A stretch of 64,000 nt of DNA, taken from positions 5,560 through 69,559 of IMG/VR virus record IMGVR_UViG_3300039098_000071, one strand, 5' to 3'. The position numbers and the translations under genes are program-made. A model generated the notes under the pieces. It had not been told where the DNA came from and did not search any database. It was given only the letters and a program-made list of their open reading frames with translations. Shown piece by piece: positions 20,210-56,861 of the stretch (positions are counted from its first letter, which is position 1; each line of letters starts with the position of its first letter). Origin of the DNA: a virus.

Positions 20210-20310
20210 GCCGCCGGGGTAAAAGAGTGTGGTGACATGGACAATTGAATGTGATCCCGGCGGCGGTATGCCTGCGTTGTGTTTTGGAGGAGTGAACCAA
20301 TGACAACAGA
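20210..20310 (-). ncRNA. candidate two-hairpin anti-SD small RNA
   Basis: 9-bp GC stem 20210-18/20256-64 with a 37-nt loop; second hairpin contains UGUUGUCAUUGGUUCACUCCUCC, complementary to the yopX RBS/start. Confidence 0.55.
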
Positions 20311-20473
20311 TTACTATCGTTCTGCTCACACAAATAGTTTTCTGTGATTCTGATTCAGAGCCGATTTAAGCGCCTCAGATTTTCAGACACACCACCACAT
20401 CAAAAAAAGTAGATCGCCGCACACGTGGCGGCGCAGCACAGAAGAACAACGATATGATTGCACTGTTTGATTA

Positions 20474-20710
20474 TCACTGCTCCATCTCATGCACCCTCTC
20501 TTCCGCCATATACGAAACAAACATCTCTCTGATGTCTTGATACACATCTACAGCATCTCTTTCACCACACGTATCGGCATACGCCCGCACATCAGCAATC
20601 GAGCAGTCACCGATTGCATCGAATAGATCGGATGGCATCGGACCGAAGCTGCCATACGTCCGGAACAATGCAAGTATGTTGTCGATATCGATTGTGATCA
20701 TTCGTCCCAT
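20474..20710 (-). CDS. hypothetical protein
   Basis: 78 aa with GAGG RBS. Confidence 0.55.
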   Translation of the reverse strand: MGRMITIDIDNILALFRTYGSFGPMPSDLFDAIGDCSIADVRAYADTCGERDAVDVYQDIREMFVSYMAEERVHEMEQ

Positions 20711-20713
20711 GTC

Positions 20714-20974
20714 TTACCTCTCCGTTCCAACGAGCAACGCGATGCCAGCAAACAGTACGGACACAGCAATCAGAAGAATTCCGATCACGATAATGCTGCC
20801 AGGCACACACATGAAGACAAACACACCGAATGCCGTCGCTCCGGTCGCACCGATCATGCTCGCTATATGATACGCAAGGGAGATCATCGATTGTGCGACT
20901 ATAGCATCGAGAATGAATAGAGCGGCAGCAAGGCACAGCATTATGATTGCAGTTATGGTTTGTATGGTTTTCAT
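20714..20974 (-). CDS. three-TM membrane protein
   Basis: 86 aa, almost entirely hydrophobic. Confidence 0.6.
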   Translation of the reverse strand: MKTIQTITAIIMLCLAAALFILDAIVAQSMISLAYHIASMIGATGATAFGVFVFMCVPGSIIVIGILLIAVSVLFAGIALLVGTER

Positions 20975-21504
20975 TATTCACATCCCTCCATGGCTTCTTT
21001 CAATATGCTTTCTTTCTTTTGCTCGATACAAAGAACAACCCGTCGCCGTTTACTTGTCATGGTTCGTATCAATGACCTCAGTTTAGCAACTGATATAAGC
21101 ACATCCGGCACATGGGGTCTCGCTTGCGCCAACGCTGCGGCATCATAATTATATGCATCTGCCTTTTCCAGCAGCTTCTTTTTATATGGGTTATATCGCC
21201 ACAGTTCAGTGGCTCGTTTCTCGCAGTTTTGTGCATCGTTATTTAGCTTGTTGTTCTGCGCGTCGATGTCGGCAGTGGGATCAGGCGAATGTATATACGG
21301 ATACATGACGTTGTACGTGTCTTGTCTCGAATGTAAATAGTTCTGCATATCTGGGGGTGCGTGTCGTAGCAACTGATAATACTCTGAACGAGTTGCGCCA
21401 ATTCGCAACCACGTTTCTGTGATACAGCTGTGCAATTCGCTGATATCATTCTGTAATCCGGTGTTGTAATCCTCCAATGTTGATATCGCATCAATTGTTA
21501 TCAT
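20974..21504 (-). CDS. coiled-coil hypothetical protein
   Basis: 176 aa helical, GGAGTGA RBS. Confidence 0.6.
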   Translation of the reverse strand: MITIDAISTLEDYNTGLQNDISELHSCITETWLRIGATRSEYYQLLRHAPPDMQNYLHSRQDTYNVMYPYIHSPDPTADIDAQNNKLNNDAQNCEKRATELWRYNPYKKKLLEKADAYNYDAAALAQARPHVPDVLISVAKLRSLIRTMTSKRRRVVLCIEQKKESILKEAMEGCE

Positions 21505-21506
21505 TA

Positions 21507-21803
21507 TTAATCACTCCAAGCGTGTATGATCTCATCATGCGGCGTTTGCAAAACTTTTATAAGTGTGTCACTGTCGATGTCGAGCACAACCACAAGATCT
21601 TTGTACATACTGATGTTGAGTGAACACAGCTCATCACACTGTTTTTCAAGTGTGTAACACAGTGCGAGGTACGCGTCTTCGTTTAGCAATACGCACCATG
21701 CGGTTAAATTGTTCTCTCGCAACACACGTATTTTTTCGCAGATGTCATCCTCGATCGTTTCGGCAAGCGACATACTGAACGGCACAACAATTTCTATTGG
21801 CAT
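21507..21803 (-). CDS. hypothetical protein (leaderless start MPIEI)
   Basis: ATG lies 23 nt downstream of the conserved TTAAGTA box. Confidence 0.6.
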   Translation of the reverse strand: MPIEIVVPFSMSLAETIEDDICEKIRVLRENNLTAWCVLLNEDAYLALCYTLEKQCDELCSLNISMYKDLVVVLDIDSDTLIKVLQTPHDEIIHAWSD

Positions 21804-21824
21804 AATGTGTATGGTGGCATGCAG

Positions 21825-21841
21825 GTACTTAAGGGTTCTGC
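21825..21841 (-). promoter_or_regulatory. conserved viral BRE/TATA promoter GCAGAACCCTTAAGTAC
   Basis: Identical 17-mer at 26789-26805 and 16/17 at 56845-56861; variants at 50817(+), 50461(+), 35321(-). Confidence 0.75.
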
Positions 21842-25217: not shown

Positions 25218-26390
25218 TTATTTCTCCTGATCAAAATACGTTTCTATATGTGGCGTGTGCGCCATACTGCGCTCCCTGATTAATGTCTCATAATCCGGAT
25301 TCAGTTCGAAGCCGATCGCATTCCGGTTCAGCTTGCGGCAGACCTCCAGTACTGTGCCGGATCCGCAGAACGGATCAAGCACCGTGCCAGTGACCCAGCC
25401 GGCGCCACATGAGCAGGCGGTCCAGCCGGTTGTCTCGATCGATGTTATGCCGCGTGGGACCCCCTGCCACTGGTTCGATGCGTCCATGGGCTTCTGGTCG
25501 TTCGCACCACGGACCCCCTTCTCAGCAGACACGTCTTGCTGCGGCACAAATTCACGATCAACTATCCGCGCCCGGATGTGCCCGCAATCCGGGCATATCT
25601 CTGCGGGGCACGCCGCCCTGATCATCGGATCTATTAGTGTAGTCGGGAATGTGGCAAAATGCGACTCTGGGTACGGTTTCGTGTTTATGGTCCAGACGTC
25701 ACCCGGATTCTTTCCGAGCGAGTGAAATGCGTTCGGTGCTTTGCTACCGCCAGGTGGGTCACGCATGCCATTGGGTTTGTATGCTTTCTGTGCGTTCTCT
25801 GTTCGTTTCACTTCCTTTTGGGTCCGCCCATAATGCGCACGGGGATTGTTCTGTGCATGCGGCGTACCGGCATCGCCGCCCTTCCGGCTCCACACTTCAG
25901 CGTATTTCGCAGGGACCCGGACCGCATCGAGATCGAACCAGTACTTTTTGCTCTTTGTAAGCATGTAAACCGGCTCATACTTGTTTGCAAACCTGTCACG
26001 CACGCTGGATGGCATCCCATTACTTTTGTGCCAGATAATTCTATTCCTTAATATAAATCCCTGCTCATCGATCATCCGCATGATTAGCCGCTCGTTCTGC
26101 ATGGTGAGGCATTTTGCAGTAGTGTTACCCGAACCACCGTAACTGTCACCATGGTTCCAGAATAAGACCGCTGTAGGCTTCATAACACGTTTTATCTCCG
26201 CCGTAACCTCCAGCAGCCGATCATGATACTCTTCGAGCGTTGGTTCAAGCCCGATCTGCCCATCGACTTGATAATCTCTCAGAAAGTAATATGGCGGACT
26301 CGTAACTATTGTATCTATACTGTCTGCCGGTACACAACGCAATAATTCAATGCAATCACCTATCTCATACGTTTGTGAGGATACCGTCAT
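25218..26390 (-). CDS. beta-class DNA methyltransferase (N4-C/N6-A) with zinc-ribbon insertion
   Basis: GDC...TSPPY, IIWHK, HFATFP and VLDPFCGSGT...GFELN motifs; likely start MTVSS at 26390. Confidence 0.9.
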   Translation of the reverse strand: MTVSSQTYEIGDCIELLRCVPADSIDTIVTSPPYYFLRDYQVDGQIGLEPTLEEYHDRLLEVTAEIKRVMKPTAVLFWNHGDSYGGSGNTTAKCLTMQNERLIMRMIDEQGFILRNRIIWHKSNGMPSSVRDRFANKYEPVYMLTKSKKYWFDLDAVRVPAKYAEVWSRKGGDAGTPHAQNNPRAHYGRTQKEVKRTENAQKAYKPNGMRDPPGGSKAPNAFHSLGKNPGDVWTINTKPYPESHFATFPTTLIDPMIRAACPAEICPDCGHIRARIVDREFVPQQDVSAEKGVRGANDQKPMDASNQWQGVPRGITSIETTGWTACSCGAGWVTGTVLDPFCGSGTVLEVCRKLNRNAIGFELNPDYETLIRERSMAHTPHIETYFDQEK

Positions 26391-26594
26391 GGTACACTGA
26401 TATGATACTTGATAGTATATATAGCCATCGGTCGCAAACCTGATACCACAAGAGAAACAAACACTCGTCCGTGCCACCTTGCTATGCGGAGATGGTCGTA
26501 ATCTGCGCCGACTGCCGGCAGCCGCACCTCTGCAAAGATAAGATTGCCGACGGCTCCTGTGCATTAAAACAAGTCGAAGAGCAGAAATGATAGT

Positions 26595-26647
26595 ACAGAC
26601 GACCGCGGCAAGTGGGGTTTTGCTGGTGTGATCGCGATCATCTGCCC
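26595..26647 (-). ncRNA. candidate stem-loop small RNA or structured leader
   Basis: Starts 22 nt after TTTAAATA (26669-76); 13-bp stem with G-U pairs; loop AUCACACCAGCAAAACCCCACUUGC. Confidence 0.5.
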
Positions 26648-26696
26648 AACACAACATTACGACACTGGTATTTAAACGTTGTGTAACAAAGGAGGC

Positions 26697-26767
26697 AGCA
26701 GGCGACTGCCAAAAAAGAATGAAGGATTGTGGATGCCCATGAAATGTGTAGTGTGTTGTCGCCTGCC
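26697..26767 (-). ncRNA. candidate stem-closed small RNA
   Basis: Starts 23 nt after the conserved promoter; GGCAGGCGAC/GUCGCCUGCU stem with a 51-nt G-poor loop. Confidence 0.55.
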
Positions 26768-26788
26768 ATAACTATCTACGCCCCCAAG

Positions 26789-26805
26789 GTACTTAAGGGT
26801 TCTGC
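26789..26805 (-). promoter_or_regulatory. conserved promoter GCAGAACCCTTAAGTAC, possibly bidirectional
   Basis: Exact copy of 21825-21841; a plus-strand ORF starts at 26822. Confidence 0.7.
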
Positions 26806-26821
26806 ACATAACACACATCAC

Positions 26822-27085
26822 ATGACAGAAATGAGACGCATTAAGATCACCCACGAAGATTACAAACAACTCGATTCAGAATTCAACGCCGATTCTGCGC
26901 GCAATGCACCGGCTGGGTTCCTTGTGCATAGTGTGCTCGAACAGAATGCCGAACTTAAGCAGCGCGTGAAAGAACTTGAATTGTTATTATCGCGGGTCGC
27001 CACAATGAATGTATCGAACGCAAAAAACAGAAATGCGGCGTGGGACACACTGGACGCCGCTGTCATCGAGTTAAAAACGATGTGA
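26822..27085 (+). CDS. small DNA-binding/coiled-coil protein
   Basis: MRRIKITHEDYKQL beta-alpha start followed by a heptad repeat. Confidence 0.55.
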   Translation: MTEMRRIKITHEDYKQLDSEFNADSARNAPAGFLVHSVLEQNAELKQRVKELELLLSRVATMNVSNAKNRNAAWDTLDAAVIELKTM

Positions 27086-34619: not shown

Positions 34620-34705
34620 TACTACATAGTATCTAATCGTATATAAACTTATCGTTTGCGTGCGCAATTACAGATTTCATACACAATATGGAATACCGTC
34701 TGCAT

Positions 34706-35281: not shown

Positions 35282-35391
35282 TTTTGCCAACCATCCTATG
35301 ATTATTACTTTGCCCACAAAGTACTTAAAGGTTTCCTCGCACGTTCACTACCACCATTCAACCCCCAGATAAGACTGCACCACTCATCACC

Positions 35392-46531: not shown

Positions 46532-46813
46532 AATTCCTCCATTCCTATCTTTTACTTACACGTTGTTACTTGCATTGTTCCTGCGGCACCACGTCGTATA
46601 CCTCGACGCCGCCATGGCAGACTGGGTATCCAGTTGGTCTGCTTTTGACAAACGCGATGGTCCCATCACTGCGCATGTCCAAAAACGTGCCGGTATCAAC
46701 GATCCGAGACGTATGTGTATCGAAGTTGATCAGTCTGACCGCCCCATCTGTGATGGCACTGTAATATATGACTTGTCCTGCTTGCAGTAACCTTATGATC
46801 TCTTCTTTGTCGT

Positions 46814-47263: not shown

Positions 47264-47475
47264 AGCAATCCTCCGATTATGAGGAGAGATACGCCAATTA
47301 TAATCCACCATCCGATCAACAGCACGAATAGTTCCAATCTGCACCGACGTCGATATGCCTCGATCGTCTGAGTATACAAAACATATATTGCTATCAATAC
47401 GAGACACATCGTCACAACGACAACAAAAACCGCAATCATTGCCATTCCTATCTCGATCATCAAGTTGTTCATGTT

Positions 47476-47865: not shown

Positions 47866-48060
47866 CAGTTCACTCCTCCCGAGATATGGCGGATTGCTTC
47901 CTCAATGCCCACACTCGAGCATACCATACTGTTGCCAGCACCGCAGCAAGTAGTAACGCCTCAATGCGTCCGGTGTCTGCAAACAGCATGCAGCCCATTC
48001 CTATCACAACTGCCATCATGATCTGTTCCCATGTCTTGATTGGTTTCACTTCTTTCATGA

Positions 48061-48450
48061 TTATTCACTCCTTTGCGACGTCGTTTCCGACGCACGTTGC
48101 TCTCGGAACATTTTTGTAAGCATGGCATTGGTCTGCACACTACCATCTGCCATTTGTGCCGGTACAGAACTCGTGAATTCGTCCCACGCAGTTAAAGCCA
48201 CGCGTGCGGTGTTCTTTATCCCACCGTCGATATAATCCATATCAGTGGTGTGGAAATGGAAAACGACACCGAACCCGTTGTGTCCGTGCCAGTCGAACCT
48301 TTCGAACCAAAAGCTGTATCCGTATCTATTACCCCATCCAAGATGGGTTAGCTTGTCGTGTGAGGTCCACCCACGTTCCATCATTTTTATGCGCAGATCA
48401 TTCACATCCATTCTTTCAATGTCGATCTCGTTCATATCGTTTATTGTCAT
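48061..48450 (-). CDS. hypothetical protein
   Basis: 129 aa with GGAGTGA RBS. Confidence 0.6.
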   Translation of the reverse strand: MTINDMNEIDIERMDVNDLRIKMMERGWTSHDKLTHLGWGNRYGYSFWFERFDWHGHNGFGVVFHFHTTDMDYIDGGIKNTARVALTAWDEFTSSVPAQMADGSVQTNAMLTKMFREQRASETTSQRSE

Positions 48451-48452
48451 GA

Positions 48453-48899
48453 TTATTCACTCCTGCCGTCAATCGTTCGGTCCACTCTGTCCATTATGGC
48501 TTCGCATGTGTAGCTATGCATGTCATGCCACATGACACAGTTTTTAGCTACGTCGAACCGTTCCGACAATCCAGCATCTTTGAAAATGTGTATCCGCATG
48601 CAACGTTCGGACCACACCGATCCAGTCGTGAACAGTGCTCGCATCCCAATCACTCTGAAATACTGATTGGCGGCGCAGATCTCGTCGCCCTCAAGCGGGT
48701 ATGGCTGACCGACTCCGACGTACTCATTGTCTAATAGCTTTCCATACACGATGTGGTCGCTTGTCATGTACGGTGCGCACTCGCACAGGAAACGGAAGCC
48801 CAATGGCACCGTGTTTGTGGGCACGTAAGTTGCACATCGTCCGTTTCCGACTGCAAAACTCTTTCCGAGTATTCCTTCGTTGTTTGTATGTGTTGTCAT
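48453..48899 (-). CDS. hypothetical protein
   Basis: 148 aa with GGAG RBS. Confidence 0.55.
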   Translation of the reverse strand: MTTHTNNEGILGKSFAVGNGRCATYVPTNTVPLGFRFLCECAPYMTSDHIVYGKLLDNEYVGVGQPYPLEGDEICAANQYFRVIGMRALFTTGSVWSERCMRIHIFKDAGLSERFDVAKNCVMWHDMHSYTCEAIMDRVDRTIDGRSE

Positions 48900-49019
48900 G
48901 TTCAGGTTCTCCTGTAATAATTAGCTGACTGTAATGAAACGTCCAATCCTATCTGAATACTTGTGGTTGTTCTCATGATTCATTCCTTCTTATTTATTAA
49001 TCCCGTCAACTATGTTATG

Positions 49020-49132
49020 GACGGAAAGGACGGAAAGGACGATTATAGCCTATTACCCCTCTATAAATATTTGCCAACCCCACAATAGTAGAATCGTCCA
49101 TACCGTACTTTCCGTCATGTAATGTTGGCAAA
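49020..49132. repeat. iteron-containing inverted repeats just downstream of the D5 helicase; putative second origin
   Basis: 49020-44 (GACGGAAAG x2 + GACGATT) pairs with 49092-116 at 22/25; TTTGCCAAC 49070-78 pairs with GTTGGCAAA 49124-32. Confidence 0.7.
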
Positions 49133-49139
49133 CATTTAA

Positions 49140-50543
49140 TTATATCGTTGGTGATAATATCACCCCGGACCAGCGGCGACTGTAGTTTCCCGCATCTTTG
49201 TCGAATCCTTTATCGTCCACAAATTCATGGTCATTCCGTAAAGACCGGTTTAATTTCTTCTTGGTTTTGGCAGTGAAACCATGTTCTTGACAATACCTAA
49301 GATAAGACTTGTATAACGATTCGAATGATATAAAATTGTCTGGATCATACGTTATTTCAACGCAGTCCATTATAAACGCCGTAACAGAGTCTGAATGTTT
49401 TACATAGAACTCTTTTACTTCATCTATGCTGGTTTTCTTCGAGAAATCCATATTATCATTCAATCGCTGGAGTCCTTCGATCGCCAGGTTTAATATGCCT
49501 GCCAATTCTGATTCCGTGGTCAAAGACTTATAGTAATTCTTGGTGTCGTCCTTGCCAACGAACGTTTTCTTGAAATTGAACATCATAACCCGTCTCCAGA
49601 ACGCTATCGTTTCGTCATGCGTCCGTGGCAGCTCGTTTGCACTAAAAATCAGTTTGGCATGATTTACAAAATTGAAGGGGTTCTGAAACTTTCTTTCTGC
49701 TAGCAAACGATCGCCCCCCGTCAATCCTTTCAACTTACCACTGTATTCCAAGTCTCTGTGACTCAAATCACCTGCTATGTTCGCTAACTTGCCATATAGT
49801 TCTGCCAACGTAAAATTTCTATCAAAATTCTGCAATTCAACCGTTGACACATTGTCGTTGCCGAGAAATGCAGATAACACACTCAAAAGAGTCCCTTTGC
49901 CATTTCCTCCGCTGCCATAAAACATAAACCACCTCTGTATAGAATAGTTTTTAACCAAACAGTAACCAAACAACTCTATTATACTGTCTCGTTCATTCTT
50001 ATCAGAGAGCACAGTTTCAAGGAAATCTTCGAACATTGGGCATTTGGCGGCGGGGTCATATATTACGGGGATCTTCTGCAGAAAATACAGATCTGGTGAA
50101 TGGTCGGTGAATTCAAATGTCGTTGTGTTCAATACGCCATTCTGTAATGCGATTTCGTGTTCGTTGTTGTCAAATATGCTGCGGTCAACATATCTTTTCC
50201 GCTCAACATGTCCCACCACTTCTCCGACTGATCTGGTTGATACACGTCGCCCACCGGTGGATCGTTCGACCATCCCTTTGATATAAGTCTTTGCATCCGG
50301 CACATATATTCCATCAACATATCGGTATATAGTTTCCGTATCAGAGATCGTCAAAAAACGCTGCCCGCTTTTCTCGGTCAACCAAACCGAGAAATTGTTC
50401 GGGACAAACTTCGCTTCCTCGAAAAACTCCGGTAAATGATTGATTGTCACATCGCGACCGGAACCATTAAGTACCTCTCCACCAAAGTTATAAGTGGATT
50501 CTGTTGATTTGGGGGTTGCCGCCCCCGCTGCATTTTTATTCAT
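49140..50543 (-). CDS. D5/P4-family SF3 helicase without a primase domain
   Basis: LQNGVL...HSPD, YDP.AKCP.F, YGSGGNGKGT, LKGLTGGD, KLIFSANELP and AFWRR motifs; C-terminal wHTH. Confidence 0.9.
   Translation of the reverse strand: MNKNAAGAATPKSTESTYNFGGEVLNGSGRDVTINHLPEFFEEAKFVPNNFSVWLTEKSGQRFLTISDTETIYRYVDGIYVPDAKTYIKGMVERSTGGRRVSTRSVGEVVGHVERKRYVDRSIFDNNEHEIALQNGVLNTTTFEFTDHSPDLYFLQKIPVIYDPAAKCPMFEDFLETVLSDKNERDSIIELFGYCLVKNYSIQRWFMFYGSGGNGKGTLLSVLSAFLGNDNVSTVELQNFDRNFTLAELYGKLANIAGDLSHRDLEYSGKLKGLTGGDRLLAERKFQNPFNFVNHAKLIFSANELPRTHDETIAFWRRVMMFNFKKTFVGKDDTKNYYKSLTTESELAGILNLAIEGLQRLNDNMDFSKKTSIDEVKEFYVKHSDSVTAFIMDCVEITYDPDNFISFESLYKSYLRYCQEHGFTAKTKKKLNRSLRNDHEFVDDKGFDKDAGNYSRRWSGVILSPTI
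50495..50540 (+). ncRNA. candidate cis-antisense RNA to the 5' end of the helicase gene
   Basis: Promoter variant GAACCATTAAGTAC at 50461-74, GGGGG/CCCCC hairpin at 50511-26, T-tract at 50533-40. Confidence 0.55.
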
Positions 50544-50546
50544 TAG

Positions 50547-50717
50547 TCACTCCTTTTCAAACATCACCGCACCATCTGGTGTGAGTGACACTCGCATCAC
50601 ATCTCCTGCATGCAGATCAAGCGTACGCATTGCAATGCGGGGCATGTTGATCGTATGCGCATTGGTCGATTGCTGAACTTTCCGAGTCCCGAGTTGTATA
50701 TTCGTGTCGAAAGACAT
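50547..50717 (-). CDS. 56-aa AbrB-like regulator (not in ORF track)
   Basis: LGTRKVQQ....HTINMP......LDLHAGD.M.V.L..DG; TTTATATA box upstream. Confidence 0.75.
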   Translation of the reverse strand: MSFDTNIQLGTRKVQQSTNAHTINMPRIAMRTLDLHAGDVMRVSLTPDGAVMFEKE

Positions 50718-50847
50718 GTAATAACATGTGTTCGTTGAGGTATATAAAGGTTTCTGTTAGAGTGAAATGCACCCACCAAAACCAACCCATCCAGTCATAT
50801 CTTTGGTGCGCAACCGGAACCCTTAAGTACGTTCACGCCAACTATGT

Positions 50848-50905
50848 ATGTGGTTTCTCTTGTTTTCCCCCAGGGGGTTTGCCACCCCCGTCCCCTTCTT
50901 CTTCA
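50848..50905 (+). ncRNA. candidate anti-SD small RNA
   Basis: Follows GAACCCTTAAGTAC (50817-30); pyrimidine-rich 5' end, GGGGG/CCCCC hairpin, pyrimidine tail. Confidence 0.5.
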
Positions 50906-51189
50906 GCATTTCAGAATCACAGAGTATTCTAACAATACTCGCAAGTACACTACAGAACAAAGAAGATAGGACCGGACCGTCCGTTCCAGCACCAAAACAC
51001 CTATCACATATCACAGCAAAACATGAAACCCATGACACGCAACAAAAAAGACGGCTCTCAGTCGGGACGCAAGGATGGCGGACGGGGCAGAAACCAGACG
51101 GACAAATGCCGCCACCCGGCAAAAAAGAAATAGCGAGGCATGTAGCAGATCAGAAACCTTTAAGTGGTGTCAGTGACATAGATAACATC

Positions 51190-51366
51190 ATGGCAGAAGA
51201 CACACGAGAGCCAATCGTGCGCATGACGTTGCGCATACCAGAATCACTCATCAACGAATTCGAGAGCATCACCACGCACGAAGATGCCAGGTCGATGAAT
51301 GTGGCGGTGTGCAACTCGATAAGAGAAACCATTGCACGACACCACAAATGCGAAGGAGATGAATGA
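51190..51366 (+). CDS. Arc/RHH DNA-binding protein
   Basis: VRMTLRIPESL...........RSMN..V...IRE; TTTAAG box about 25 nt upstream. Confidence 0.8.
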   Translation: MAEDTREPIVRMTLRIPESLINEFESITTHEDARSMNVAVCNSIRETIARHHKCEGDE

Positions 51367-51707
51367 TGGAAACAAAAGCAACCGTCCATGCGTGGGTAAA
51401 TAACCAGAACCCCGACCGGATCGTCATCAACGGAATATGGGGCAACGTGACCACAAGAGACATATCACAGATCGAAGATGATCTATCAGATGCAAAGTTG
51501 TCGATCCCACGAATCGACTCGAAATCAGTCGTTGGCATACGTTGCGTATTGGCACGCAAGCAATCATACAGCGTTGTGAACACATGGACGTGTGCAGTCG
51601 AGGGATATGTCATCTATGACCATCTGACGACAGAAACAACGATTGTGTCGTGTGATGAGTTCGAGAAGAGATATAATGTCTGCTATCGGTTCGGCGAGGA
51701 AACATGA
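51363..51707 (+). CDS. hypothetical protein, paralog of the N-domain of 45142..45894
   Basis: V..W....PD.I.I.G..G.V...DI..I. Confidence 0.6.
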   Translation: MMETKATVHAWVNNQNPDRIVINGIWGNVTTRDISQIEDDLSDAKLSIPRIDSKSVVGIRCVLARKQSYSVVNTWTCAVEGYVIYDHLTTETTIVSCDEFEKRYNVCYRFGEET

Positions 51708-51861
51708 AAACAGAACGGGCACAGCAGATCCAGAGTATCACCGCTCGCCTTGAGATGGCAGCCGACAGAGAGATCGGCGAGTCCAACAACGAATGGTATC
51801 GCCTGATGAATCGTATCTCATCATCAATCGACATTTATCTAATCGAACAGGAGTTGAAGCT

Positions 51862-52227
51862 ATGAAAGCAGACACGTATGAATACAAACCAATCGATATA
51901 CCCATCGAAGAGATGAGTTACAACCAGTACCTTGAGCTCACCCTCGCATGGTTGGAAGACACAAACGACGGCGAGCTGCTGGACCTGGTGAGCCCGCTTG
52001 AGTGCCCGATCCACAAGTGGATAAAAGAGACAAATCGGATATGCAGTGGTGACACGATCCCGAACACTGCTAAATGTCCAGTTTGCGGCTACTACGAATG
52101 TCCAGACTGCCACAGCCACAAAGTCGATGTGTTATCGAGAGTAACTGGGTACTTACAGGTTGTATCGGGCTGGAACAGCGCGAAGACACAGGAATTTGAA
52201 GACAGAACGCGATACGACGTGTCTTAA
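51862..52227 (+). CDS. stand-alone NrdD C-terminal zinc-ribbon/glycyl-radical domain protein
   Basis: CPVCG...CPDC.S..VDVLSRVTGYL..VSGWN.AK..EF.DR.RY in only 121 aa. Confidence 0.85.
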   Translation: MKADTYEYKPIDIPIEEMSYNQYLELTLAWLEDTNDGELLDLVSPLECPIHKWIKETNRICSGDTIPNTAKCPVCGYYECPDCHSHKVDVLSRVTGYLQVVSGWNSAKTQEFEDRTRYDVS

Positions 52228-52262
52228 GAAAACCATCGCCAAAGATTCAATAGAAATACGAA

Positions 52263-52293
52263 CCCCGCCCGGATAAGCGGGGCATTCTTTTTT
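52263..52293 (+). terminator. hairpin plus T-tract between convergent genes
   Basis: CCCCGC-CCGGATAA-GCGGGG followed by CATTCTTTTTT. Confidence 0.7.
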
Positions 52294-53690
52294 CAGTTCA
52301 GCCAGATCAATCGGTCCACATTTCCATCTGATACAACAAGCGAAACCAGATCATCGATGTTGATGACTTCCGTGGTGCCCATGCGATTCAGCGTGAGCGT
52401 GAGTCCATCGTCTGGCACATCCCGATACACCGCAAACTCGGACAACGAAGTGTATATCCGTGGTCCATGCATGTCTATGATCTTGAAGTACTGCCCCATC
52501 GCGACACATGGAAGCTTAACAAGCTCTCCGGATTCGGTGATGGTTGCATCGTCTACGACTGTGGTCCAGTCATGCCCGTCCGTAGACACCTGTACGTCGA
52601 ACGTCATCGGGACGTCGAGTTTGAACATGGCTACTCTGATCGCTGAGGATTGTACCACATCACCCATATCAAATGTTAAGGTGGGGTCGAGGTCATCGAT
52701 CTTTGAAAACCAATGCGTCTCTACGTCGCCGTCTATGGTGTTCTCAACTGGATACTTTGTGCGATATACAGTCGATGCCACGACCGAGTCAGGCGTGACC
52801 CATTCGCTTGGGGTATCGCCATGATCAACGATTCCCGTAACGGCATACGCATAATTATACTTCTCGATCACGCCGTACCTGACCCTTGCGTATCCATTCT
52901 CGCCCCAGTTCTCGCCCCAACAATTCTTGATGAACCAACAGCCATCTGAATCGTTCCAACCGACCACAACAACGGCGTGGTTCGCCCAACCGAGATTGCC
53001 AACAAACGCTGGTTCATATACTCCGGATCGATAATAATACCAGTCTTCCGGAACAGAGATCACGACCGAGATCGGACCATGTTCTTGGATTGCATACTTA
53101 AATGAGTCCGTGGTCGGCGCAACATAAACACACTCTTCTATCTGCCACGCGATACTCTCCCAGTTTTCGCACGTCTCGCAGTCTCTCGTATTCTTTGCAA
53201 TGTATGGATAGCATGCCTCATTCGGGATCCCGATGTCTCGCGCATACTTCAGTACTTCATCCGGCCATCCACCGCCACACGATCCAGTGTTTGTACATGA
53301 TATCAGATGTTGTTCCGAAAGGTCAACGGTTTTGCCCGTCTCGATGAGTATCTTCGACTCGATCGCGCCGGTTGCACCGAATGCCCAGCAACTCCCGCAT
53401 GATCCTTGGTGTTTCACCGGAGTCGTCCCGTTGTTTTCTCTCCAGTCAAACGCTGGTGGATACATCGGCATTGGTGGCGCGTATATAACACGATCATCTT
53501 CATCAGGGACCGATGCAACAGCACCACCGAGTGCAGCCTTTTCATTGTCGCACAATCCCGACACTGACGTCGTGCCGCTCTCCCATACCGGGGCTTCTCC
53601 TGCGATTGCAGTGAGCGCCCGGGTTTCATCTGTTGCTGCTGCGTTCGCGCAAAACAGCAACAGAAGTATCAGTATTATGAATTGCTTCAT
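52293..53690 (-). CDS. secreted papain-like (C1A) cysteine peptidase with discoidin/F5-8 type C domain
   Basis: Signal peptide; FDWR, QGSCGSCWAF, LSEQHL, NHAV, KNCWG..WGENGY; IDGD..T.W...VSTDG.DW. Confidence 0.9.
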   Translation of the reverse strand: MKQFIILILLLLFCANAAATDETRALTAIAGEAPVWESGTTSVSGLCDNEKAALGGAVASVPDEDDRVIYAPPMPMYPPAFDWRENNGTTPVKHQGSCGSCWAFGATGAIESKILIETGKTVDLSEQHLISCTNTGSCGGGWPDEVLKYARDIGIPNEACYPYIAKNTRDCETCENWESIAWQIEECVYVAPTTDSFKYAIQEHGPISVVISVPEDWYYYRSGVYEPAFVGNLGWANHAVVVVGWNDSDGCWFIKNCWGENWGENGYARVRYGVIEKYNYAYAVTGIVDHGDTPSEWVTPDSVVASTVYRTKYPVENTIDGDVETHWFSKIDDLDPTLTFDMGDVVQSSAIRVAMFKLDVPMTFDVQVSTDGHDWTTVVDDATITESGELVKLPCVAMGQYFKIIDMHGPRIYTSLSEFAVYRDVPDDGLTLTLNRMGTTEVINIDDLVSLVVSDGNVDRLIWLN

Positions 53691-53768
53691 GCGCAGTATC
53701 TACGACTGCGCGGTATAAAAACGGTTTGTTAAAATGAACTTGTTTATACTTTGCTGGCAATGTGTTAT

Positions 53769-54392
53769 CTACGTGGGGTCCACACATCGATTAATTGTTA
53801 GCACAACGTCGAGTATGTCGATCACATCATCATAATTCATGTCCGCACGGTCACCATCGATTGATACGTTGTCTGGATCGGAGACATGATTCAGTAGCTG
53901 GATTGCATCGCGCACATCAACTATTCGATCTCTGTTTACATCGCCCATGAGCGGAGTGATCGTGACCGATCCGTGGATATAATCACTGTGCATCAGGATA
54001 TCATACTCATCTCTTAAGATTGTGTTCATTACGTGTAACAGCGTTGTTTCACCGCACTCGCCGATTGCCGTAATTCGAACACTGCCAAAAAATCGATCGC
54101 CTGTCAATGTCATGTCATCAGAACCCGTGTACATCCCAACAAATCCACCACTGTCTTTGATTGCTGTCACCACAAACCCATAATCGCCGCATTCCCCGGC
54201 AGTCATCTCGATAACAGAATCGTTATATTGAATGCATACATGTCCATGATGAAACGTCGTGTCTGTTACATGTATTTCAACAAGCGTAGTACACCCTTCT
54301 TGCAATTCTATATCATCTATTGATATCGTGTTTTCTGCTGCTGCGCTCGACGCAAAAAGCAGCAATACCAAAAATGTTATGATGTGTTTCAT
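53769..54392 (-). CDS. secreted cohesin plus dockerin protein
   Basis: Signal peptide; IQYNDSVIE...VRITAIG..G cohesin-like part; GDVNRDRIVDVRDA and ADMNYDDVIDILDV duplicated Ca-binding loops. Confidence 0.8.
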   Translation of the reverse strand: MKHIITFLVLLLFASSAAAENTISIDDIELQEGCTTLVEIHVTDTTFHHGHVCIQYNDSVIEMTAGECGDYGFVVTAIKDSGGFVGMYTGSDDMTLTGDRFFGSVRITAIGECGETTLLHVMNTILRDEYDILMHSDYIHGSVTITPLMGDVNRDRIVDVRDAIQLLNHVSDPDNVSIDGDRADMNYDDVIDILDVVLTINRCVDPT

Positions 54393-54438
54393 GGTATTAA
54401 AATTAAAAGGTGGCGCCAATTGCGGCGCCAATTGTATT

Positions 54439-55365
54439 CTACTCACCCGTGTTCCCGGTAGCAATGTTCAAGATGTGTATTGCATCGCGAACATTTAACA
54501 CTCCATCTGCCACGACATCAGCGACATCAAGATTTATCGCTGTGTTGTCTGGATCAACAATGTACGTGATCACCATCAGGGCATCAAGAGAATCTACCGT
54601 GCCGTCGCCGTTCACATCACCCATGACAATTACTGCCACCGGAATCGTTATCTGTGTGGTGGCGCCATCGTCATCTGTAACAGTCGCTACAATGTCGTAA
54701 GTACCCGGCAGAACATTTGCTGGCATCTGGAACTCGTATTCATAACGGTCACCTGATACATAGTTATATTCCACGATTCCGAGACCTATCGGAGTTAAAT
54801 CAAACGTGACGATTGCAATCGTACCGTCGGGGTCCGAAGCAGTGACACCGATTCTGCCACTTCCACCCGGTGCAAAGTCCGTGGCGTGAATATCTGTTAT
54901 CACAGGATCCAAATTATCAGATATGATCTCGACAGACCCAGCATTGACAGCCGATACAATTTCGATTGCATTTGGGTCGCTCAAACATATCGCGTCCATC
55001 GACAACGGCGACACATCACCAATGCTCCCGACGGCAGTCACCTGCAAAGTACACATTGTTAGATCGCCAGTCTTGCCACCACCAAGTGACAGTATAACGA
55101 TTCGGACAGACGTTGCAGATGCTTCTAGATTATACTTTGTCCAATCAAGATCACCATTGAGAACACCGGTAATCTCAATCACAGTTGGATCATACGTAAT
55201 GTCTACCTGCCCGGCGGCAACATCCGTGGCGTTGCAGACCACAACCGGGATGCCCGCCGATGCACCAGGACATAGTTGTACGTCATCTATTGTCATGACG
55301 TTGTCCTCTGCGGCGACAGCAGTCGCGCACAAGAGGAGTACCAATATAGCTACAATTGATTTCAT
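54439..55365 (-). CDS. secreted cohesin + Ig-like + dockerin protein
   Basis: ITYDPTVIEI...LQVTAVG..G..SPL; ASDPDG...ATVTDDDG; GDVNGDGTVDSLDA and ADVVADGVLNVRDA. Confidence 0.85.
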   Translation of the reverse strand: MKSIVAILVLLLCATAVAAEDNVMTIDDVQLCPGASAGIPVVVCNATDVAAGQVDITYDPTVIEITGVLNGDLDWTKYNLEASATSVRIVILSLGGGKTGDLTMCTLQVTAVGSIGDVSPLSMDAICLSDPNAIEIVSAVNAGSVEIISDNLDPVITDIHATDFAPGGSGRIGVTASDPDGTIAIVTFDLTPIGLGIVEYNYVSGDRYEYEFQMPANVLPGTYDIVATVTDDDGATTQITIPVAVIVMGDVNGDGTVDSLDALMVITYIVDPDNTAINLDVADVVADGVLNVRDAIHILNIATGNTGE

Positions 55366-55442
55366 CAGTCATGTCTGCGATTGGGTACTATAAAAAAGTT
55401 ATTCAAATTACCAAATGCAGAACCGGGTTTGGCATTTTGCTA

Positions 55443-56147
55443 TCATGGCTTGTACTTCGTACTCACTACCTCGGTAATCGTTTTAGCTGTCTTCGGACCG
55501 ATATTTGGCACCGATACGAGTTCGCTCACGGTCGCAGACATGATCGCTCGCGGCGTATGAAAATGATTAAGCAGTCTTGTCGCTGTATCTACTCCTACCC
55601 CCATGATAGAAGTGATAAGATAGATTTGTTTTTCATCCAAAGATAGGTGAGAGCGTTTCCCGTGGGGGGATGGTTTGCCTGTGTGGTTATCTAATTGCGC
55701 TTTCTTTGCTGCTATAACTAGCATCTCCGCCGTATCATGTGTGCTCATTGTCCAGATGATCGGCACGCGAAATCCATTTGCGATGGCATATAATTTCCCA
55801 CGAATTGAATTTGGATGTATGCCAGGGCGCAGCGTATACAGTTCCATCAGTTCCTGCCCCTCGATTATGAGAGCGGGGCGCCGATACTCGCGTGCCAGAT
55901 CTGCGACCTGCCGCATGAGATACCCCTTTTCATGCTGTTCGTTTTCGTCAAACGCGCTGTGCAAGAAATCCGGAAACGTCTTGCGCTCAAACGCAATTTC
56001 TGGCGAAACGACATAATCACCAACCTCGAGCGTTTCAACACGGGGTATGACTGAATAGTCGTTTGTAGAACATGCCTCGAGTTCATCTATGATCTCGGAT
56101 GGCTCTCTCGAATCAACGACCACCTCGACCTCTTGCGATGGTTTCAT
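55443..56147 (-). CDS. ERCC4/XPF (Hef nuclease-like) structure-specific endonuclease with HhH2
   Basis: VVVDSRE, L.VGDY, ERKT..DF and LIIEG motifs; C-terminal GVG and NIGPKTA hairpins. Confidence 0.92.
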   Translation of the reverse strand: MKPSQEVEVVVDSREPSEIIDELEACSTNDYSVIPRVETLEVGDYVVSPEIAFERKTFPDFLHSAFDENEQHEKGYLMRQVADLAREYRRPALIIEGQELMELYTLRPGIHPNSIRGKLYAIANGFRVPIIWTMSTHDTAEMLVIAAKKAQLDNHTGKPSPHGKRSHLSLDEKQIYLITSIMGVGVDTATRLLNHFHTPRAIMSATVSELVSVPNIGPKTAKTITEVVSTKYKP

Positions 56148-56716
56148 CTGTCCACCATCGACATAATCAGATCTGCCATGCGGCTTGCAGGTGGTGGGGT
56201 TTTATATGTGTAATCAACATACATATTGCTGGAATAACCAAACCGATATTCGATTTCATTTGCGAATCCCACAATGTCCACAGCAGTATCTTTGCCACCG
56301 TCACGTCCAAGTAGCCATTCTATGTTGAGCTCCAGTCTGATCACTTGATCGTACGTGCTCATCCAGTTCATAGCGATTTGATGCATCACACGCATCGTTT
56401 TCATGTGCACATCAAATGGTGAGTCTTCGTGATCAACGAATCGCCGCATGTACATCATGTTGTCAAGGAGGGTCCGGTCGCACAAAATGACCTGTGCGCC
56501 AGTATCCATTGCGATGAGTTCCCGCCGCAACTGTTCCGTAAAGATCCAGGTCTGCGCATCAAATGTTGTTTCCATTCCTGTCTGGAATGGACATTCTCGT
56601 GCGACTTCGTTAACACACACACACGTTATGTCACGCTCGGTTAGCTCTTTTTCGATCTTTAATAAAAGCGTTGTCTTTCCGCTGCCGTGCACCCCAGTTA
56701 ATGCGAATTTGATCAT
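56144..56716 (-). CDS. P-loop kinase (AAA_28/NadR-like)
   Basis: ALTGVHGSGKTT, EVAR and ILCDRTLLD..MY motifs. Confidence 0.8.
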   Translation of the reverse strand: MIKFALTGVHGSGKTTLLLKIEKELTERDITCVCVNEVARECPFQTGMETTFDAQTWIFTEQLRRELIAMDTGAQVILCDRTLLDNMMYMRRFVDHEDSPFDVHMKTMRVMHQIAMNWMSTYDQVIRLELNIEWLLGRDGGKDTAVDIVGFANEIEYRFGYSSNMYVDYTYKTPPPASRMADLIMSMVDR

Positions 56717-56740
56717 GTGGTTTCTCCTGCAGAATTGTGT

Positions 56741-56824
56741 TCAGCCAGCGCGCCGGGTATGGATCCCGTTCACAAACATGGTGTTGTTTATACGGTCACG
56801 CTGACTGAGTCGGCGTTAGCCGAC
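56741..56824 (-). ncRNA. structured leader or ncRNA
   Basis: Starts 22 nt after the conserved promoter; GUCGGC-UAAC-GCCGAC, then a 12-bp stem UCAGUCAGCGUG/CGCGCUGGCUGA enclosing two hairpins. Confidence 0.6.
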
Positions 56825-56844
56825 AATATATATTGGATGTGCAG

Positions 56845-56861
56845 ATACTTAAGGGTTCTGC
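56845..56861 (-). promoter_or_regulatory. conserved promoter GCAGAACCCTTAAGTAT
   Basis: 16/17 match to the 21825 and 26789 copies. Confidence 0.7.

What the first reader, a model, noticed from the sequence alone, without database searches (positions are those of the whole stretch)
20210..56861. Family of promoter-driven stem-loop small RNAs: a candidate anti-Shine-Dalgarno regulatory system
Seen: the 17-mer GCAGAACCCTTAAGTAC or close variants occurs at 21825, 26789, 56845, 50817, 50461 and 35321. At 21825 an ATG follows 23 nt after the TATA box. At 26789 and 56845, and at the TATA boxes at 26669 and 34640, the same spacing lands on the first bases of a strong stem rather than an ORF. At 50461 and 50817 it lands on short non-coding tracts with a GGGGG/CCCCC hairpin. 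Several loops and tails are G-poor and carry anti-SD or anti-AUG words (CUCCUCC, UCACACC, GUCACC, CCUCCUUU). Two of them pair extensively with start regions of distant viral genes. Inference: the virus may use short hairpin-stabilised RNAs to block translation initiation of its own or host mRNAs. I do not know of this being described for archaeal tailed viruses.
Basis: partly seen in the sequence, partly recalled or inferred. Interest (0 to 1): 0.82.

Follow-up and report, generated by a model that had tools for sequence, protein, structure and literature searches.

The report
Consensus promoters of an archaeal virus
The repeated 17-base word is the strongest form of this archaeal tailed virus's ordinary gene promoter, and what follows it is a mix of ordinary gene starts, folded untranslated leaders and one antisense start, not a demonstrable family of ribosome-site-blocking small RNAs.

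Summary
The 17-mer is real: 5 copies within 3 mismatches, 0.09 expected. Its core RAACCHTTAAGTR occurs 7 times, 0.01 expected. It reads as an archaeal BRE+TATA promoter. Twelve TATA boxes in the window lie 30-34 nt before the first ATG of a gene, so leaderless mRNAs are the rule; internal genes carry GGAGG-type SD sites.

The nine named sites differ in kind:
- A drives a leaderless 98-aa gene.
- F drives a short-leader gene.
- D drives a 108-nt leader that folds very strongly (z -4.6) ahead of an SD-led ATPase gene.
- B and C are tandem promoters in 470 nt with no coding signal, upstream of a methylase that has its own promoter.
- P2 precedes 342 nt of doubtful coding sequence before an RHH repressor gene that has its own promoter.
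- P1 lies inside, and antisense to, the D5 primase gene.
- G has no credible promoter.

Stems that start at the predicted TSS are enriched only for B, C and E. Pairing with start regions is no better than random for 5 of 7 candidates, and the two exceptions have simpler explanations. There is no Rfam match, no RNA run and no close relative. The anti-SD system is unsupported. Some non-coding transcripts remain plausible.

The parts
21825..21841 (-). Site A: class-I promoter (BRE+TATA 17-mer). ATG 21803 lies 30 nt after the TATA start and opens a leaderless 98-aa ORF, 21507-21803.
   Evidence: (codon score 0.207 per codon in frame)
26789..26805 (-). Site B: class-I promoter with predicted TSS 26766-26769. 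An 11-bp stem (26768-26758 / 26706-26696) closes a 51-nt loop that holds a T6 run (26716-26711). CCTCC follows at 26695-26691. The 43-codon ORF from ATG 26769 has no coding signal.
   Evidence: z -0.93; -0.088 per codon; stem score 10
26669..26676 (-). Site C: TATA box TTTAAATA with predicted TSS about 26645. A 13-bp stem with GU pairs (26645-26633 / 26607-26595) has a 25-nt loop. The site lies in the non-coding tract 26391-26860.
   Evidence: z -2.27; stem score 11.5
25218..26423 (-). N6/N4 DNA methylase. The real start is ATG 26390 (MTVSSQTYEIGDC...), 33 nt after its own TATATATA (26416-26423). The 89 in-frame codons upstream, back to ATG 26657, carry no coding signal.
   Evidence: (Pfam domain from residue 114 of the long ORF)
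56845..56861 (-). Site D: class-I promoter placed directly after the stop of gene 56863-57675.
56717..56824 (-). D leader of 108-110 nt: a 5'-terminal palindromic hairpin (56809-56824), a long stem, then SD GGAG (56724-56727) and ATG 56716 of the AAA_28 ATPase gene (56144-56716).
   Evidence: (MFE -43 kcal/mol, z -4.59, 0 of 200 shuffles)
34640..34647 (-). Site E: TATA box TTTATATA with predicted TSS about 34616-34619. An 8-bp stem (34619-34612 / 34584-34577) follows. The ORF 34284-34619 has weak coding signal and an uncertain start.
   Evidence: z -2.10; 0.076 per codon; stem score 8
35321..35338 (-). Site F: class-I promoter variant (AAACCTTTAAGTA). It drives a short-leader mRNA of the 173-aa gene 34760-35281 and has no notable structure.
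   Evidence: z +0.22; 0.304 per codon
50458..50474 (+). Site P1: class-I promoter copy inside codons 24-29 of the D5 primase-helicase gene, on the opposite strand. Predicted TSS 50494-50497, GC hairpin 50511-50526, T5 run 50533-50537. Read-through RNA would be complementary to the D5 start codon (50541-50543) and SD (50550-50553).
   Evidence: z -2.30; -0.01 per codon; the D5 frame scores 0.29
49140..50543 (-). D5-type primase-helicase gene with SD GGAGTGA. It is preceded by a leaderless 56-aa ORF (50547-50717) driven by TATA 50741-50748.
50814..50830 (+). Site P2: class-I promoter and direct repeat of P1 (58 nt at 74% identity, plus a 16-nt hairpin at 88%). Predicted TSS 50848-50853, hairpin 50873-50889. 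It is followed by 342 nt (50848-51189) that is open in frame with the RHH gene but has weak coding signal and no homologue.
   Evidence: 0.062 per codon; 0 stops against 5 and 5
51151..51366 (+). P3: class-I promoter (CAGAAACCTTTAAGTG, 51151-51166) with ATG 51190 exactly 31 nt after the TATA start. It drives a leaderless 58-aa ribbon-helix-helix (Arc-like) repressor gene, 51190-51366.
   Evidence: (phrog_582 Arc-like repressor, residues 118-167 of the long ORF, E 0.002)
20285..20307 (-). Site G: 23 nt complementary to the RBS of gene 47865. On the + strand it reads as an orphan SD plus ATG (20300) opening a 15-codon ORF (20300-20347). There is no credible TATA upstream on the - strand. It lies in the convergent gap between genes 19762-20199(+) and 20474-20710(-).
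   Evidence: (z -1.94)
50496..51330 (.). Cluster of the 10-nt box GGWTTCTSTT: 50496-50505, 50749-50758 and 50852-50861 on +, 51321-51330 on -. It sits at +1 of P1 and P2 and is the reverse complement of the BRE of the 50748 promoter. It is a candidate regulator or origin box.
   Evidence: 4 matches against 0.40 expected, all within 835 nt; 0 of 100 shuffles reach 4; 2 copies in the D5-RHH spacer of relative L084

Best explanation
The 17-mer is the best-matching form of the basal archaeal promoter used by this virus: a BRE-like RGAA(A/C)CC directly joined to a TATA box (C/T)TTAAGTA. It marks the starts of transcription units.

The virus uses two kinds of gene start. First genes of units are leaderless, with the ATG 30-34 nt after the TATA start. 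Internal genes carry GGAGG/GGAGTGA Shine-Dalgarno sites.

The named sites are therefore promoters of different outputs:
- A: a leaderless mRNA.
- F, and perhaps E: a short-leader mRNA.
- D: an mRNA with a 108-nt highly folded leader ahead of an SD-led ATPase gene.
- B and C: two tandem promoters feeding a 470-nt untranslated tract upstream of a methylase gene that has its own leaderless promoter.
- P1 and P2: a duplicated promoter cassette in the divergent control region between the D5 primase-helicase gene and an RHH repressor gene.

The 5'-terminal stems at B, C, D and E are inferred to act in cis, either as leader structures (RNA stability or control of the downstream gene) or as palindromic operator DNA over the TSS. 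They are not inferred to be trans-acting anti-SD RNAs.

Shown: motif over-representation, spacing to gene starts, SD usage, fold energies, and absence of excess pairing. Inferred: that these sites fire, where transcripts start and end, and what the stems do.
For: Motif statistics:
- The 17-mer has 5 copies against 0.09 expected.
- The core has 7 copies against 0.01 expected, all oriented with the local genes except P1.

Promoter role:
- Twelve TATA boxes lie 30-34 nt before the first ATG of a gene with coding signal: 11084, 13380, 16062, 19129, 21803, 26390, 36067, 36566, 50717, 51190, 53690 and 55365.
- 45 of 102 called starts, mostly internal genes, carry an SD word.
- The only relative found (L084, D5 at 60% aa identity) has AACCTTTAAGTAC 30 nt before the ATG of a divergent 55-aa RHH-like ORF, and AACCTTTAAATAC before D5.
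- Archaeal affinity: a full-length MCM, and a terminase closest to haloarchaeal HVTV-1/HCTV among named phages, at 39%.

D as an mRNA leader:
- It is the only promoter for the SD-led ATPase gene.
- Its leader folds at -43 kcal/mol, z -4.59.

Against the sRNA reading:
- Pairing is no better than random for 5 of 7 candidates.
- There is no Rfam family, even at E up to 5.
- Strong hairpins also sit in two bona fide leaderless coding starts and in about 50 other loci.
Against: - Four of the five 17-mer copies are followed by sequence that is probably not translated. That is odd for plain mRNA promoters in a genome where most first genes are leaderless.
- B and C feed no obvious gene. The methylase ATG 26390 has no SD and has its own TATA.
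- Stems starting at the TSS are enriched: 3 of 19 promoters score 8 or more against 3.2% of windows, and B and C score 10 and 11.5.
- B and P1 are each followed by a T5-6 run within 55 nt, so short RNAs are possible.
- P1 points into the D5 gene from the wrong side.
- No transcript data exist to show that any of these promoters fire.
Confidence: 0.6

Rival explanations
1. Some of the sites (B, C, P1) make genuine small non-coding RNAs that act in cis or on neighbouring genes. P1 would be a countertranscript against the 5' end or RBS of the D5 primase-helicase mRNA, giving plasmid-like replication control. B and C would be hairpin RNAs tied to control of the adjacent methylase.
For: - P1 keeps 16 of 17 promoter bases shared with P2 although it lies inside D5 codons. 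The 22-nt promoter block is 20/22 identical, against 74% over the 58-nt repeat.
- P1 has a 7-bp GC hairpin and a T5 run 38 nt after the TSS. Read-through would cover the D5 AUG and SD.
- The P1 ORF has no coding signal, while the D5 frame does.
- B and C sit in 470 nt without coding signal, each with a long stem that starts at the TSS (scores 10 and 11.5). B has a T6 run at +52.
- Antisense RNAs have been mapped in another archaeal virus, SSV1 (abstract of bioRxiv 10.64898/2026.06.17.732947).
Against: - No RNA run holds this virus, and no relative exists for covariation.
- T5+ runs are common inside genes: 33 on the sense strand.
- The P1/P2 similarity downstream of the TATA coincides with a DNA box clustered in this control region. 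P1 may also be a by-product of a roughly 95-nt duplication that includes the D5 start.
- By my hand binomial estimate, the extra conservation of the promoter block is only about P 0.05.
- B, C and P1 are not among the most structured windows.
Confidence: 0.22
2. One reading: a family of trans-acting, hairpin-stabilised small RNAs whose G-poor loops and tails carry anti-SD or anti-AUG words and block translation initiation of viral or host mRNAs.
For: - Anti-SD 5-mers number 8 in 742 nt against 2.6 in random segments, P about 0.02.
- CCUCC lies directly 3' of the B stem.
- G has 23 nt of complementarity to the RBS of gene 47865; 0 of 150 random segments reach it.
- The P2 5' end forms 17 bp, 3 of them GU, over the SD and AUG of gene 56716; 1% of random segments reach it.
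- The virus does use strong SD sites on internal genes.
- An RBS-masking sRNA is known in Methanosarcina mazei (sRNA162, PMC3510493; search listing and start of abstract only).
Against: - Four of 7 candidates have no anti-SD word, and the counted words overlap.
- Five of 7 pair no better than random, both by the longest-helix test and, for the 5 that finished, by duplex energy.
- G has no credible TATA at the right distance. On the + strand it reads as an orphan SD+ATGACAACA like many real starts; RBS-to-RBS identity reaches 18 among 102 real starts.
- The P2 match is about P 0.07 after 7 tests and coincides with the GGTTTCTC box.
- The candidates share no sequence or fold beyond the promoter.
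- D is the leader of an mRNA, and A and F are plain genes.
- There is no Rfam match.
Confidence: 0.05
3. The sequences just downstream of the TATA boxes act as DNA, not RNA. They would be palindromic or repeated binding sites for the virus's RHH and wHTH regulators or for the replication initiator, placed over the TSS to block RNA polymerase (operators) or forming iterons of an origin beside the D5 gene.
For: - The box GGWTTCTSTT occurs 4 times, all within 835 nt around D5-RHH, against 0.40 expected in the whole window. It starts at +1 of P1 and P2 and overlaps the BRE of the 50748 promoter.
- Relative L084 has 2 copies in the same spacer; 7 of 200 shuffles reach this.
- A third, inverted, degenerate copy of the P1/P2 element lies at 50769-50808.
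- D starts with a perfect 6+4+6 palindrome at the TSS.
- An Arc-like repressor gene sits in the same region.
Against: - The long-range stems of B (51-nt loop), C and E are poor operator geometry.
- The D leader's extended fold (z -4.6) goes well beyond a 16-nt palindrome.
- No binding data exist.
- This reading does not exclude transcription of the same sequences.
Confidence: 0.13

Closest known systems
Archaeal BRE/TATA promoters with leaderless mRNAs (as mapped by dRNA-seq in haloarchaea, Sulfolobales and methanogens; recalled, not read here)
   Same: An A/T-rich octamer with a purine-rich element directly upstream. The start codon of first genes sits at a fixed distance of about 30 nt. Internal operon genes are led by SD sites.
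   Different: The consensus here is unusually long and sharp: 13-17 identical bases in 5-7 copies, with (C/T)TTAAGTA rather than TTTAWATA. Firing and TSS positions are predicted only.
sRNA162 of Methanosarcina mazei (PMC3510493; search listing and start of abstract only)
   Same: An archaeal small RNA reported to act on the 5' region of an mRNA.
   Different: sRNA162 is an experimentally defined host transcript with a validated target. Here no transcript is shown, and pairing is not above chance for 5 of 7 candidates.
Plasmid and phage countertranscripts (R1 CopA, ColE1 RNA I, lambda OOP, halovirus phiH antisense RNA; recalled, not read here) and the SSV1 antisense RNAs (abstract of bioRxiv 10.64898/2026.06.17.732947)
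   Same: P1 is a promoter on the opposite strand inside the 5' end of a replication gene, followed by a GC hairpin and a U run. This is the layout of a replication-control countertranscript.
   Different: Expression is untested. The T5 run lies before the D5 AUG and SD, so a terminated RNA would not cover them. P1 may be a relic of a duplication.
5'-terminal stem-loops that stabilise leadered mRNAs against 5'-end-dependent RNases (bacterial ompA-type leaders; recalled)
   Same: The stems begin within 1-3 nt of the predicted 5' end at B, C, D and E.
   Different: This is not known to me for archaeal viruses. No decay data exist, and the same sequences could be operators.
C-rich anti-SD seed sRNAs of Firmicutes (RsaE/RoxS type; recalled)
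   Same: G-poor, C-rich single-stranded stretches lie next to hairpins: the B loop and tail, and the C loop.
   Different: There is no shared seed motif among the candidates, no excess pairing to SD regions, and the domain of life differs.

Membership tests
Archaeal BRE+TATA promoter | An A/T-rich TATA octamer at a fixed distance (about 25-30 nt) upstream of the transcript start | tested here: met
   Twelve TATA boxes lie 30-34 nt before the first ATG of SD-less genes, taken as leaderless starts. The TSS itself is inferred, not measured.
Archaeal BRE+TATA promoter | A purine-rich BRE directly upstream of the TATA box that sets the direction | tested here: met
   RGAA(A/C)CC abuts the TATA box in 8 sites (7, plus 50748). 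Seven of the 8 point along the local genes.
Archaeal BRE+TATA promoter | Actual initiation by archaeal RNA polymerase with TBP and TFB | not testable with these tools
   No RNA run holds the sequence.
Trans-acting RBS-masking sRNA (sRNA162-like, anti-SD) | A discrete short transcript with its own 5' and 3' ends | not testable with these tools
   There are no RNA data. A T5+ run follows only B (+52) and P1 (+38), and such runs are common in genes.
Trans-acting RBS-masking sRNA (sRNA162-like, anti-SD) | Complementarity to target start regions beyond chance | tested here: not met
   For 5 of 7 candidates, 18-99% of 150 random same-strand segments pair as well. The duplex-energy test says the same for the 5 that finished. 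G and P2 exceed chance but have other explanations.
Trans-acting RBS-masking sRNA (sRNA162-like, anti-SD) | Structure or seed conserved, with covariation, in relatives | not testable with these tools
   There are no close relatives: terminase relatives are at 50% aa or less, D5 has a single relative at 60%, and the ATPase has none.
Cis-antisense countertranscript of a replication gene (CopA / RNA I type) | A promoter on the opposite strand within the 5' part of the replication gene | tested here: met
   P1 core GAACCATTAAGTA lies at 50461-50473(+), inside D5 codons 24-29. This is at motif level only.
Cis-antisense countertranscript of a replication gene (CopA / RNA I type) | A stem-loop in the antisense RNA and overlap with the target RBS | tested here: inconclusive
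   The hairpin 50511-50526 is present (z -2.30 for 107 nt). Overlap with the AUG and SD needs read-through of the T5 run at 50533-50537.
Any Rfam RNA family | A covariance-model match | tested here: not met
   There are 0 matches at gathering score. At E up to 5 there is one unrelated weak match, at 54382-54441.

The most novel reading that the evidence does not exclude
An archaeal tailed virus carries a dedicated class of very sharp promoters. Besides mRNAs, they fire short hairpin RNAs with three roles:
- a countertranscript (P1) that limits translation of its D5 primase-helicase, as plasmids do for their Rep genes;
- a paralogue (P2) whose 5' end can cover the SD and AUG of a distant ATPase gene;
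- two tandem hairpin RNAs (B and C) beside the methylase gene.

This would make RNA-level control part of the virus's replication and modification circuit.
Probability: 0.15. Interest if true: 0.6.

Novelty: new member of a known kind. Interest (0 to 1): 0.3.

Why it matters
Promoters and transcript architecture are almost unmapped for uncultured archaeal tailed viruses from sediments. Three things follow from this analysis:
- A sharp consensus (RGAA(A/C)CC + (C/T)TTAAGTA, ATG at +30-31) gives a practical rule. It can be used to call leaderless gene starts, as it did here for the methylase and the RHH gene. It may also help recognise the host lineage.
- The untranslated tracts behind four of these promoters and the antisense copy inside the D5 gene are concrete, cheap targets for primary-transcript mapping.
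- The specific claim of an anti-SD RNA system, which would have been striking, does not hold up against matched controls.

Tried and rejected
- Rfam: nothing at gathering score. At E up to 5 there was only an unrelated weak match.
- RNA evidence: no RNA holder was listed for the 10-kb query. Four DNA runs of one marine-sediment study hold it.
- Laying their contigs on 37500-57400 listed no variant inside P1, P2 or D, so there was no test of stems or frames. 492 further differences were not shown.
- Relatives for covariation:
  - Terminase in IMG/VR: 170 relatives, best 42% aa, none with the motif.
  - D5 in IMG/VR: none.
  - D5 in metagenomes: one locus at 60% aa.
  - ATPase in IMG/VR: none.
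  - Terminase in genomes: best 50% aa, on a contig binned with a Chloroflexota MAG, whose genome has no copy of the motif.
  - The exact 16-mer in IMG/VR: three single hits that look like chance, in AT-rich contigs with no ATG at +30.
- Megablast of 10 kb against named phages: no match.
- The idea that all sites are leaderless small ORFs was rejected for B and P1, which show no coding signal and have the wrong spacing. It is left open for P2.
- Homologue search with the N-terminal 114 residues of the 172-aa ORF: none.
- Oligo-T as proof of short RNAs was rejected, because 33 sense-strand T5+ runs lie inside genes.
- A resemblance of the 17-mer to a haloarchaeal CRISPR repeat, recalled from memory, was not pursued: the motif's fixed spacing to gene starts explains it as a promoter.
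- Supplementary files of papers were not consulted.

Full report
What the window is.
The window is 64 kb of a 69.6-kb linear virus record with a completeness estimate of 54%. GC is about 48% and nearly all genes lie on the - strand. It encodes:
- a large terminase, closest among named phages to haloarchaeal tailed viruses HVTV-1/HCTV at 39% aa;
- a full-length MCM helicase;
- a PrimPol, a D5-type primase-helicase and an N6/N4 methylase;
- head- or baseplate-like proteins.
The only public runs that hold it are four DNA runs of one marine-sediment study. An archaeal tailed virus is the reasonable reading.

The observation.
- The 17-mer occurs 5 times within 3 mismatches, against 0.09 expected; 0 of 100 shuffles reach 5.
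- Its core RAACCHTTAAGTR occurs 7 times, against 0.01 expected. That adds the variants at 35322 and 51154.
- With AAACCTTTATATA at 50748, there are eight sites of one class: a BRE-like RGAA(A/C)CC joined to a TATA box.

What the motif is.
- I listed TATA-like octamers with an ATG 24-36 nt downstream: 164 octamers and 61 octamer-ATG pairs.
- Twenty-four rows (19 distinct ATGs, counting the in-frame neighbours 56458 and 56455 as one) open an ORF of 40 or more codons with a codon score above 0.09.
- Twelve of these ATGs sit at the 5' boundary of a gene: 11084, 13380, 16062, 19129, 21803, 26390, 36067, 36566, 50717, 51190, 53690 and 55365. None has an SD, and all lie 30-34 nt after the first base of the octamer.
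- Five others (18289, 25014, 30112, 43513, 56458) lie deep inside long ORFs, and I take them as chance. Two on the + strand (609, 57110) are uncertain.
- Internal genes carry GGAGG, GGAGTGA or similar: 45 of 102 called starts.
- This is the classic archaeal pattern of leaderless first genes and SD-led internal genes.
- The one relative found, L084 (D5 at 60% aa), has AACCTTTAAGTAC 30 nt before the ATG of a divergent 55-aa RHH-like ORF and AACCTTTAAATAC before D5. The consensus is therefore shared beyond this genome.

Site by site.
- A (21825-21841): ATG 21803 lies at +30 and opens a 98-aa ORF with a normal codon score of 0.207 per codon. It has no structure (z +1.05). It is a plain leaderless gene.
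- F (35321): a short leader and a 173-aa gene (score 0.304, z +0.22).
- D (56845-56861):
  - It sits directly after the stop of the upstream gene.
  - It is followed by 108-110 nt that fold at -43 kcal/mol (z -4.59, 0 of 200 shuffles), then GGAG and the ATG of an AAA_28 ATPase gene.
  - No other TATA lies between. D is therefore the structured 5' leader of an mRNA.
- B and C:
  - The 479-aa 'methylase' ORF really starts at ATG 26390 (MTVSSQTYEIGDC...). This is 33 nt after its own TATATATA and about 30 residues before the SPPY motif.
  - The first 113 codons of the long ORF, 89 of which lie upstream of this start, score -0.136 per codon. The 43-codon ORF at the B start scores -0.088, against a 10th percentile of 0.093 for real genes.
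  - So 26391-26860 is about 470 nt without coding signal. It holds promoter B and TATA C, and each is followed at once by a long stem.
- P1 and P2:
  - They are direct repeats: 58 nt at 74% identity plus a 16-nt GC hairpin at 88%, 356-363 nt apart.
  - P1 lies inside D5 codons 24-29 on the other strand. Its 60-codon ORF scores -0.01, while the D5 frame scores 0.29.
  - P2 precedes 342 nt that is open in frame with the RHH gene: 0 stops against 5 and 5 in the other frames. That tract scores only 0.062 and has no homologue.
  - The RHH domain has an Arc-like match at residues 118-167 (E 0.002). It has its own class-I promoter, with ATG 51190 at +31.
- G (about 20310):
  - It has no TATA at a workable distance.
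  - On the + strand the 'anti-SD' stretch reads GGAGGAGTGAAC..ATGACAACA, an orphan SD+ATG opening a 15-codon ORF.

In the four class-I sites that clearly drive leaderless genes, the ATG lies at +30 or +31 (A, 16093, P3, 50748). The 'start codons' at B, P1, P2 and D lie at +28, +28, +26 and +27. With the same spacing, the transcript would begin 2-5 nt after them. P2 remains ambiguous.

Are the stems special?
- I scored uninterrupted helices that start within about 4 nt of the predicted TSS for 19 promoters. B scores 10, C 11.5 and E 8; D scores 6 and all others 7 or less.
- Across the genome, 3.2% of 7-nt windows reach 8 and 1.2% reach 9. Three of 19, against about 0.6 expected, is a modest excess carried by B and C.
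- By whole-region folding, the candidates have z of -0.9 to -4.6.
- Ten leaderless coding starts used as controls range from +1.8 to -5.4. Two secreted-protein genes are at -5.4 and -3.7.
- I scanned 70-nt windows at a 10-nt step on both strands. The top 80 windows fall into 52 loci, mostly inside genes. They include the D leader on its own strand and the E region only on the opposite (+) strand. B, C, P1, P2 and G are absent.
- So only D is outstanding, and strong hairpins near starts are not a mark of non-coding RNA here.

Are the RNAs short?
- A T5+ run within 400 nt of the start exists only after B (+52) and P1 (+38).
- There are 59 such runs on the - strand, and 33 of them lie inside genes on the sense strand. 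They are weak evidence of termination.

Anti-SD test.
- Six anti-SD 5-mers occur 8 times in the 742 nt of seven candidates, against 2.6 in random segments of the same lengths and strands (P 0.021). The hits overlap, lie in 3 candidates, and the set was chosen for them.
- Duplex energies against 100-odd start regions finished for 5 of 7 candidates before the time limit. They are matched or beaten by 32-84% of 25 mononucleotide shuffles and by 44-92% of 25 random segments.
- The longest-helix test on all seven, with 150 random segments each, gives these fractions of random segments reaching the observed value: B 0.47, C 0.99, D 0.18, E 0.72, P1 0.44, P2 0.01, G 0.00.
- G's 23-nt match to the RBS of gene 47865 is a 21-of-23 identity between two SD+ATGACAACA starts. 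I used the antisense of each of 102 real start regions as a null. The best matches there reach 18, so 22 is higher but of the same nature.
- The 17-bp match of P2, with 3 GU pairs, to the SD and AUG of gene 56716 is about P 0.07 after seven tests.
- That match rests on GGTTTCTC, part of the box GGWTTCTSTT. The box occurs 4 times in the window, all within 50496-51330, against 0.40 expected. It begins at +1 of both P1 and P2 and is the reverse complement of the BRE of the 50748 promoter. L084 has two copies in its D5-RHH spacer.
- A DNA-level role, as operator or origin box, explains this as well as an RNA role.

Comparison with what is known.
- The motif meets the sequence-level definition of an archaeal BRE/TATA promoter. 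Firing is untested.
- The nearest precedent for P1 is the replication-control countertranscript of plasmids (recalled).
- Antisense RNAs have recently been mapped in the archaeal virus SSV1 (abstract only).
- Two full-text searches showed me no report of anti-SD small RNAs in archaeal tailed viruses. That is not an exhaustive search, and a review I searched for virus terms spoke only of CRISPR.

Verdict.
- The sites are heterogeneous:
  - two plain genes (A, F);
  - one strongly folded mRNA leader (D);
  - one leader or ORF of uncertain start (E);
  - two tandem promoters in an untranslated tract (B, C);
  - a duplicated promoter cassette in the D5-RHH control region, with one copy antisense to D5 (P1, P2);
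  - one non-promoter (G).
- The anti-SD system fails its own pairing criterion for most members. I put it at about 5%.
- That some of B, C and P1 are real small or antisense RNAs stays open, at about 20%.

Noticed in passing
window 53591-53690 (-) and 55266-55365 (-): Two leaderless genes for secreted proteins are the papain-like protease with an F5/8 type C domain and the cohesin-dockerin protein. Both carry very strong hairpins inside the signal-peptide codons, about 25-60 nt after the AUG (z -5.38 and -3.65; 0 of 200 shuffles each).
   Followed up: partly
window 56862 joined to 21843 (run X1): One contig of run X1 matches up to 56862 and then continues for 255 letters. Its first 30 letters are identical to the + strand from 21843, the terminase end upstream of site A (table 7; compared). 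The junction lies inside the shared 17-19-mer. Promoter copies A and D may therefore be a recombination point, or a variant gene order may exist in the population.
   Followed up: partly
window 25218-26657 (-): The longest ORF of the N6/N4 methylase (479 aa) overcalls the gene. The start supported by domain position and by its own TATA is ATG 26390 (390 aa). The upstream 127 codons in that frame are nevertheless free of stops, against 2 and 3 in the other frames.
   Followed up: partly
window 50496-51330: The 10-nt box GGWTTCTSTT occurs 4 times, all in the D5-RHH control region. A third, inverted, degenerate copy of the P1/P2 element lies at 50769-50808. This is a possible operator set or replication origin beside the D5 gene.
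   Followed up: partly
window 35392-35441 and 36212-36261 (-): A 50-nt direct repeat at 88% identity lies about 60-110 nt upstream of two different promoters, TATA 35329 and TATA 36101. It could be a shared upstream control element.
   Followed up: no
window 37969-41317 (-): A VirB4/TraG/HerA-type ATPase (794 aa) sits next to a protein with a sub-threshold PrgI-family match (25.7 bits against a cut-off of 27). These are conjugation-like genes inside a genome that also has a terminase and head genes.
   Followed up: no
window 51793-52227 (+): A 144-aa protein matches only the C-terminal end of the anaerobic ribonucleotide reductase NrdD (profile positions 499-562, E 4.9e-15). It looks like a stand-alone glycyl-radical piece and hints at an anaerobic host.
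   Followed up: no
contig C1 ends (first and last 200 bases; window end 60864-64000): Both ends of the 69.6-kb contig run into tandem repeats of roughly 85-90 nt. The record is rated 54% complete and linear. The assembly probably broke inside repetitive genes.
   Followed up: no
window 20410-20440 (-): A GC hairpin followed by T7, downstream of gene 20474-20710, looks like a terminator. It lies in the convergent gap that also holds site G.
   Followed up: no
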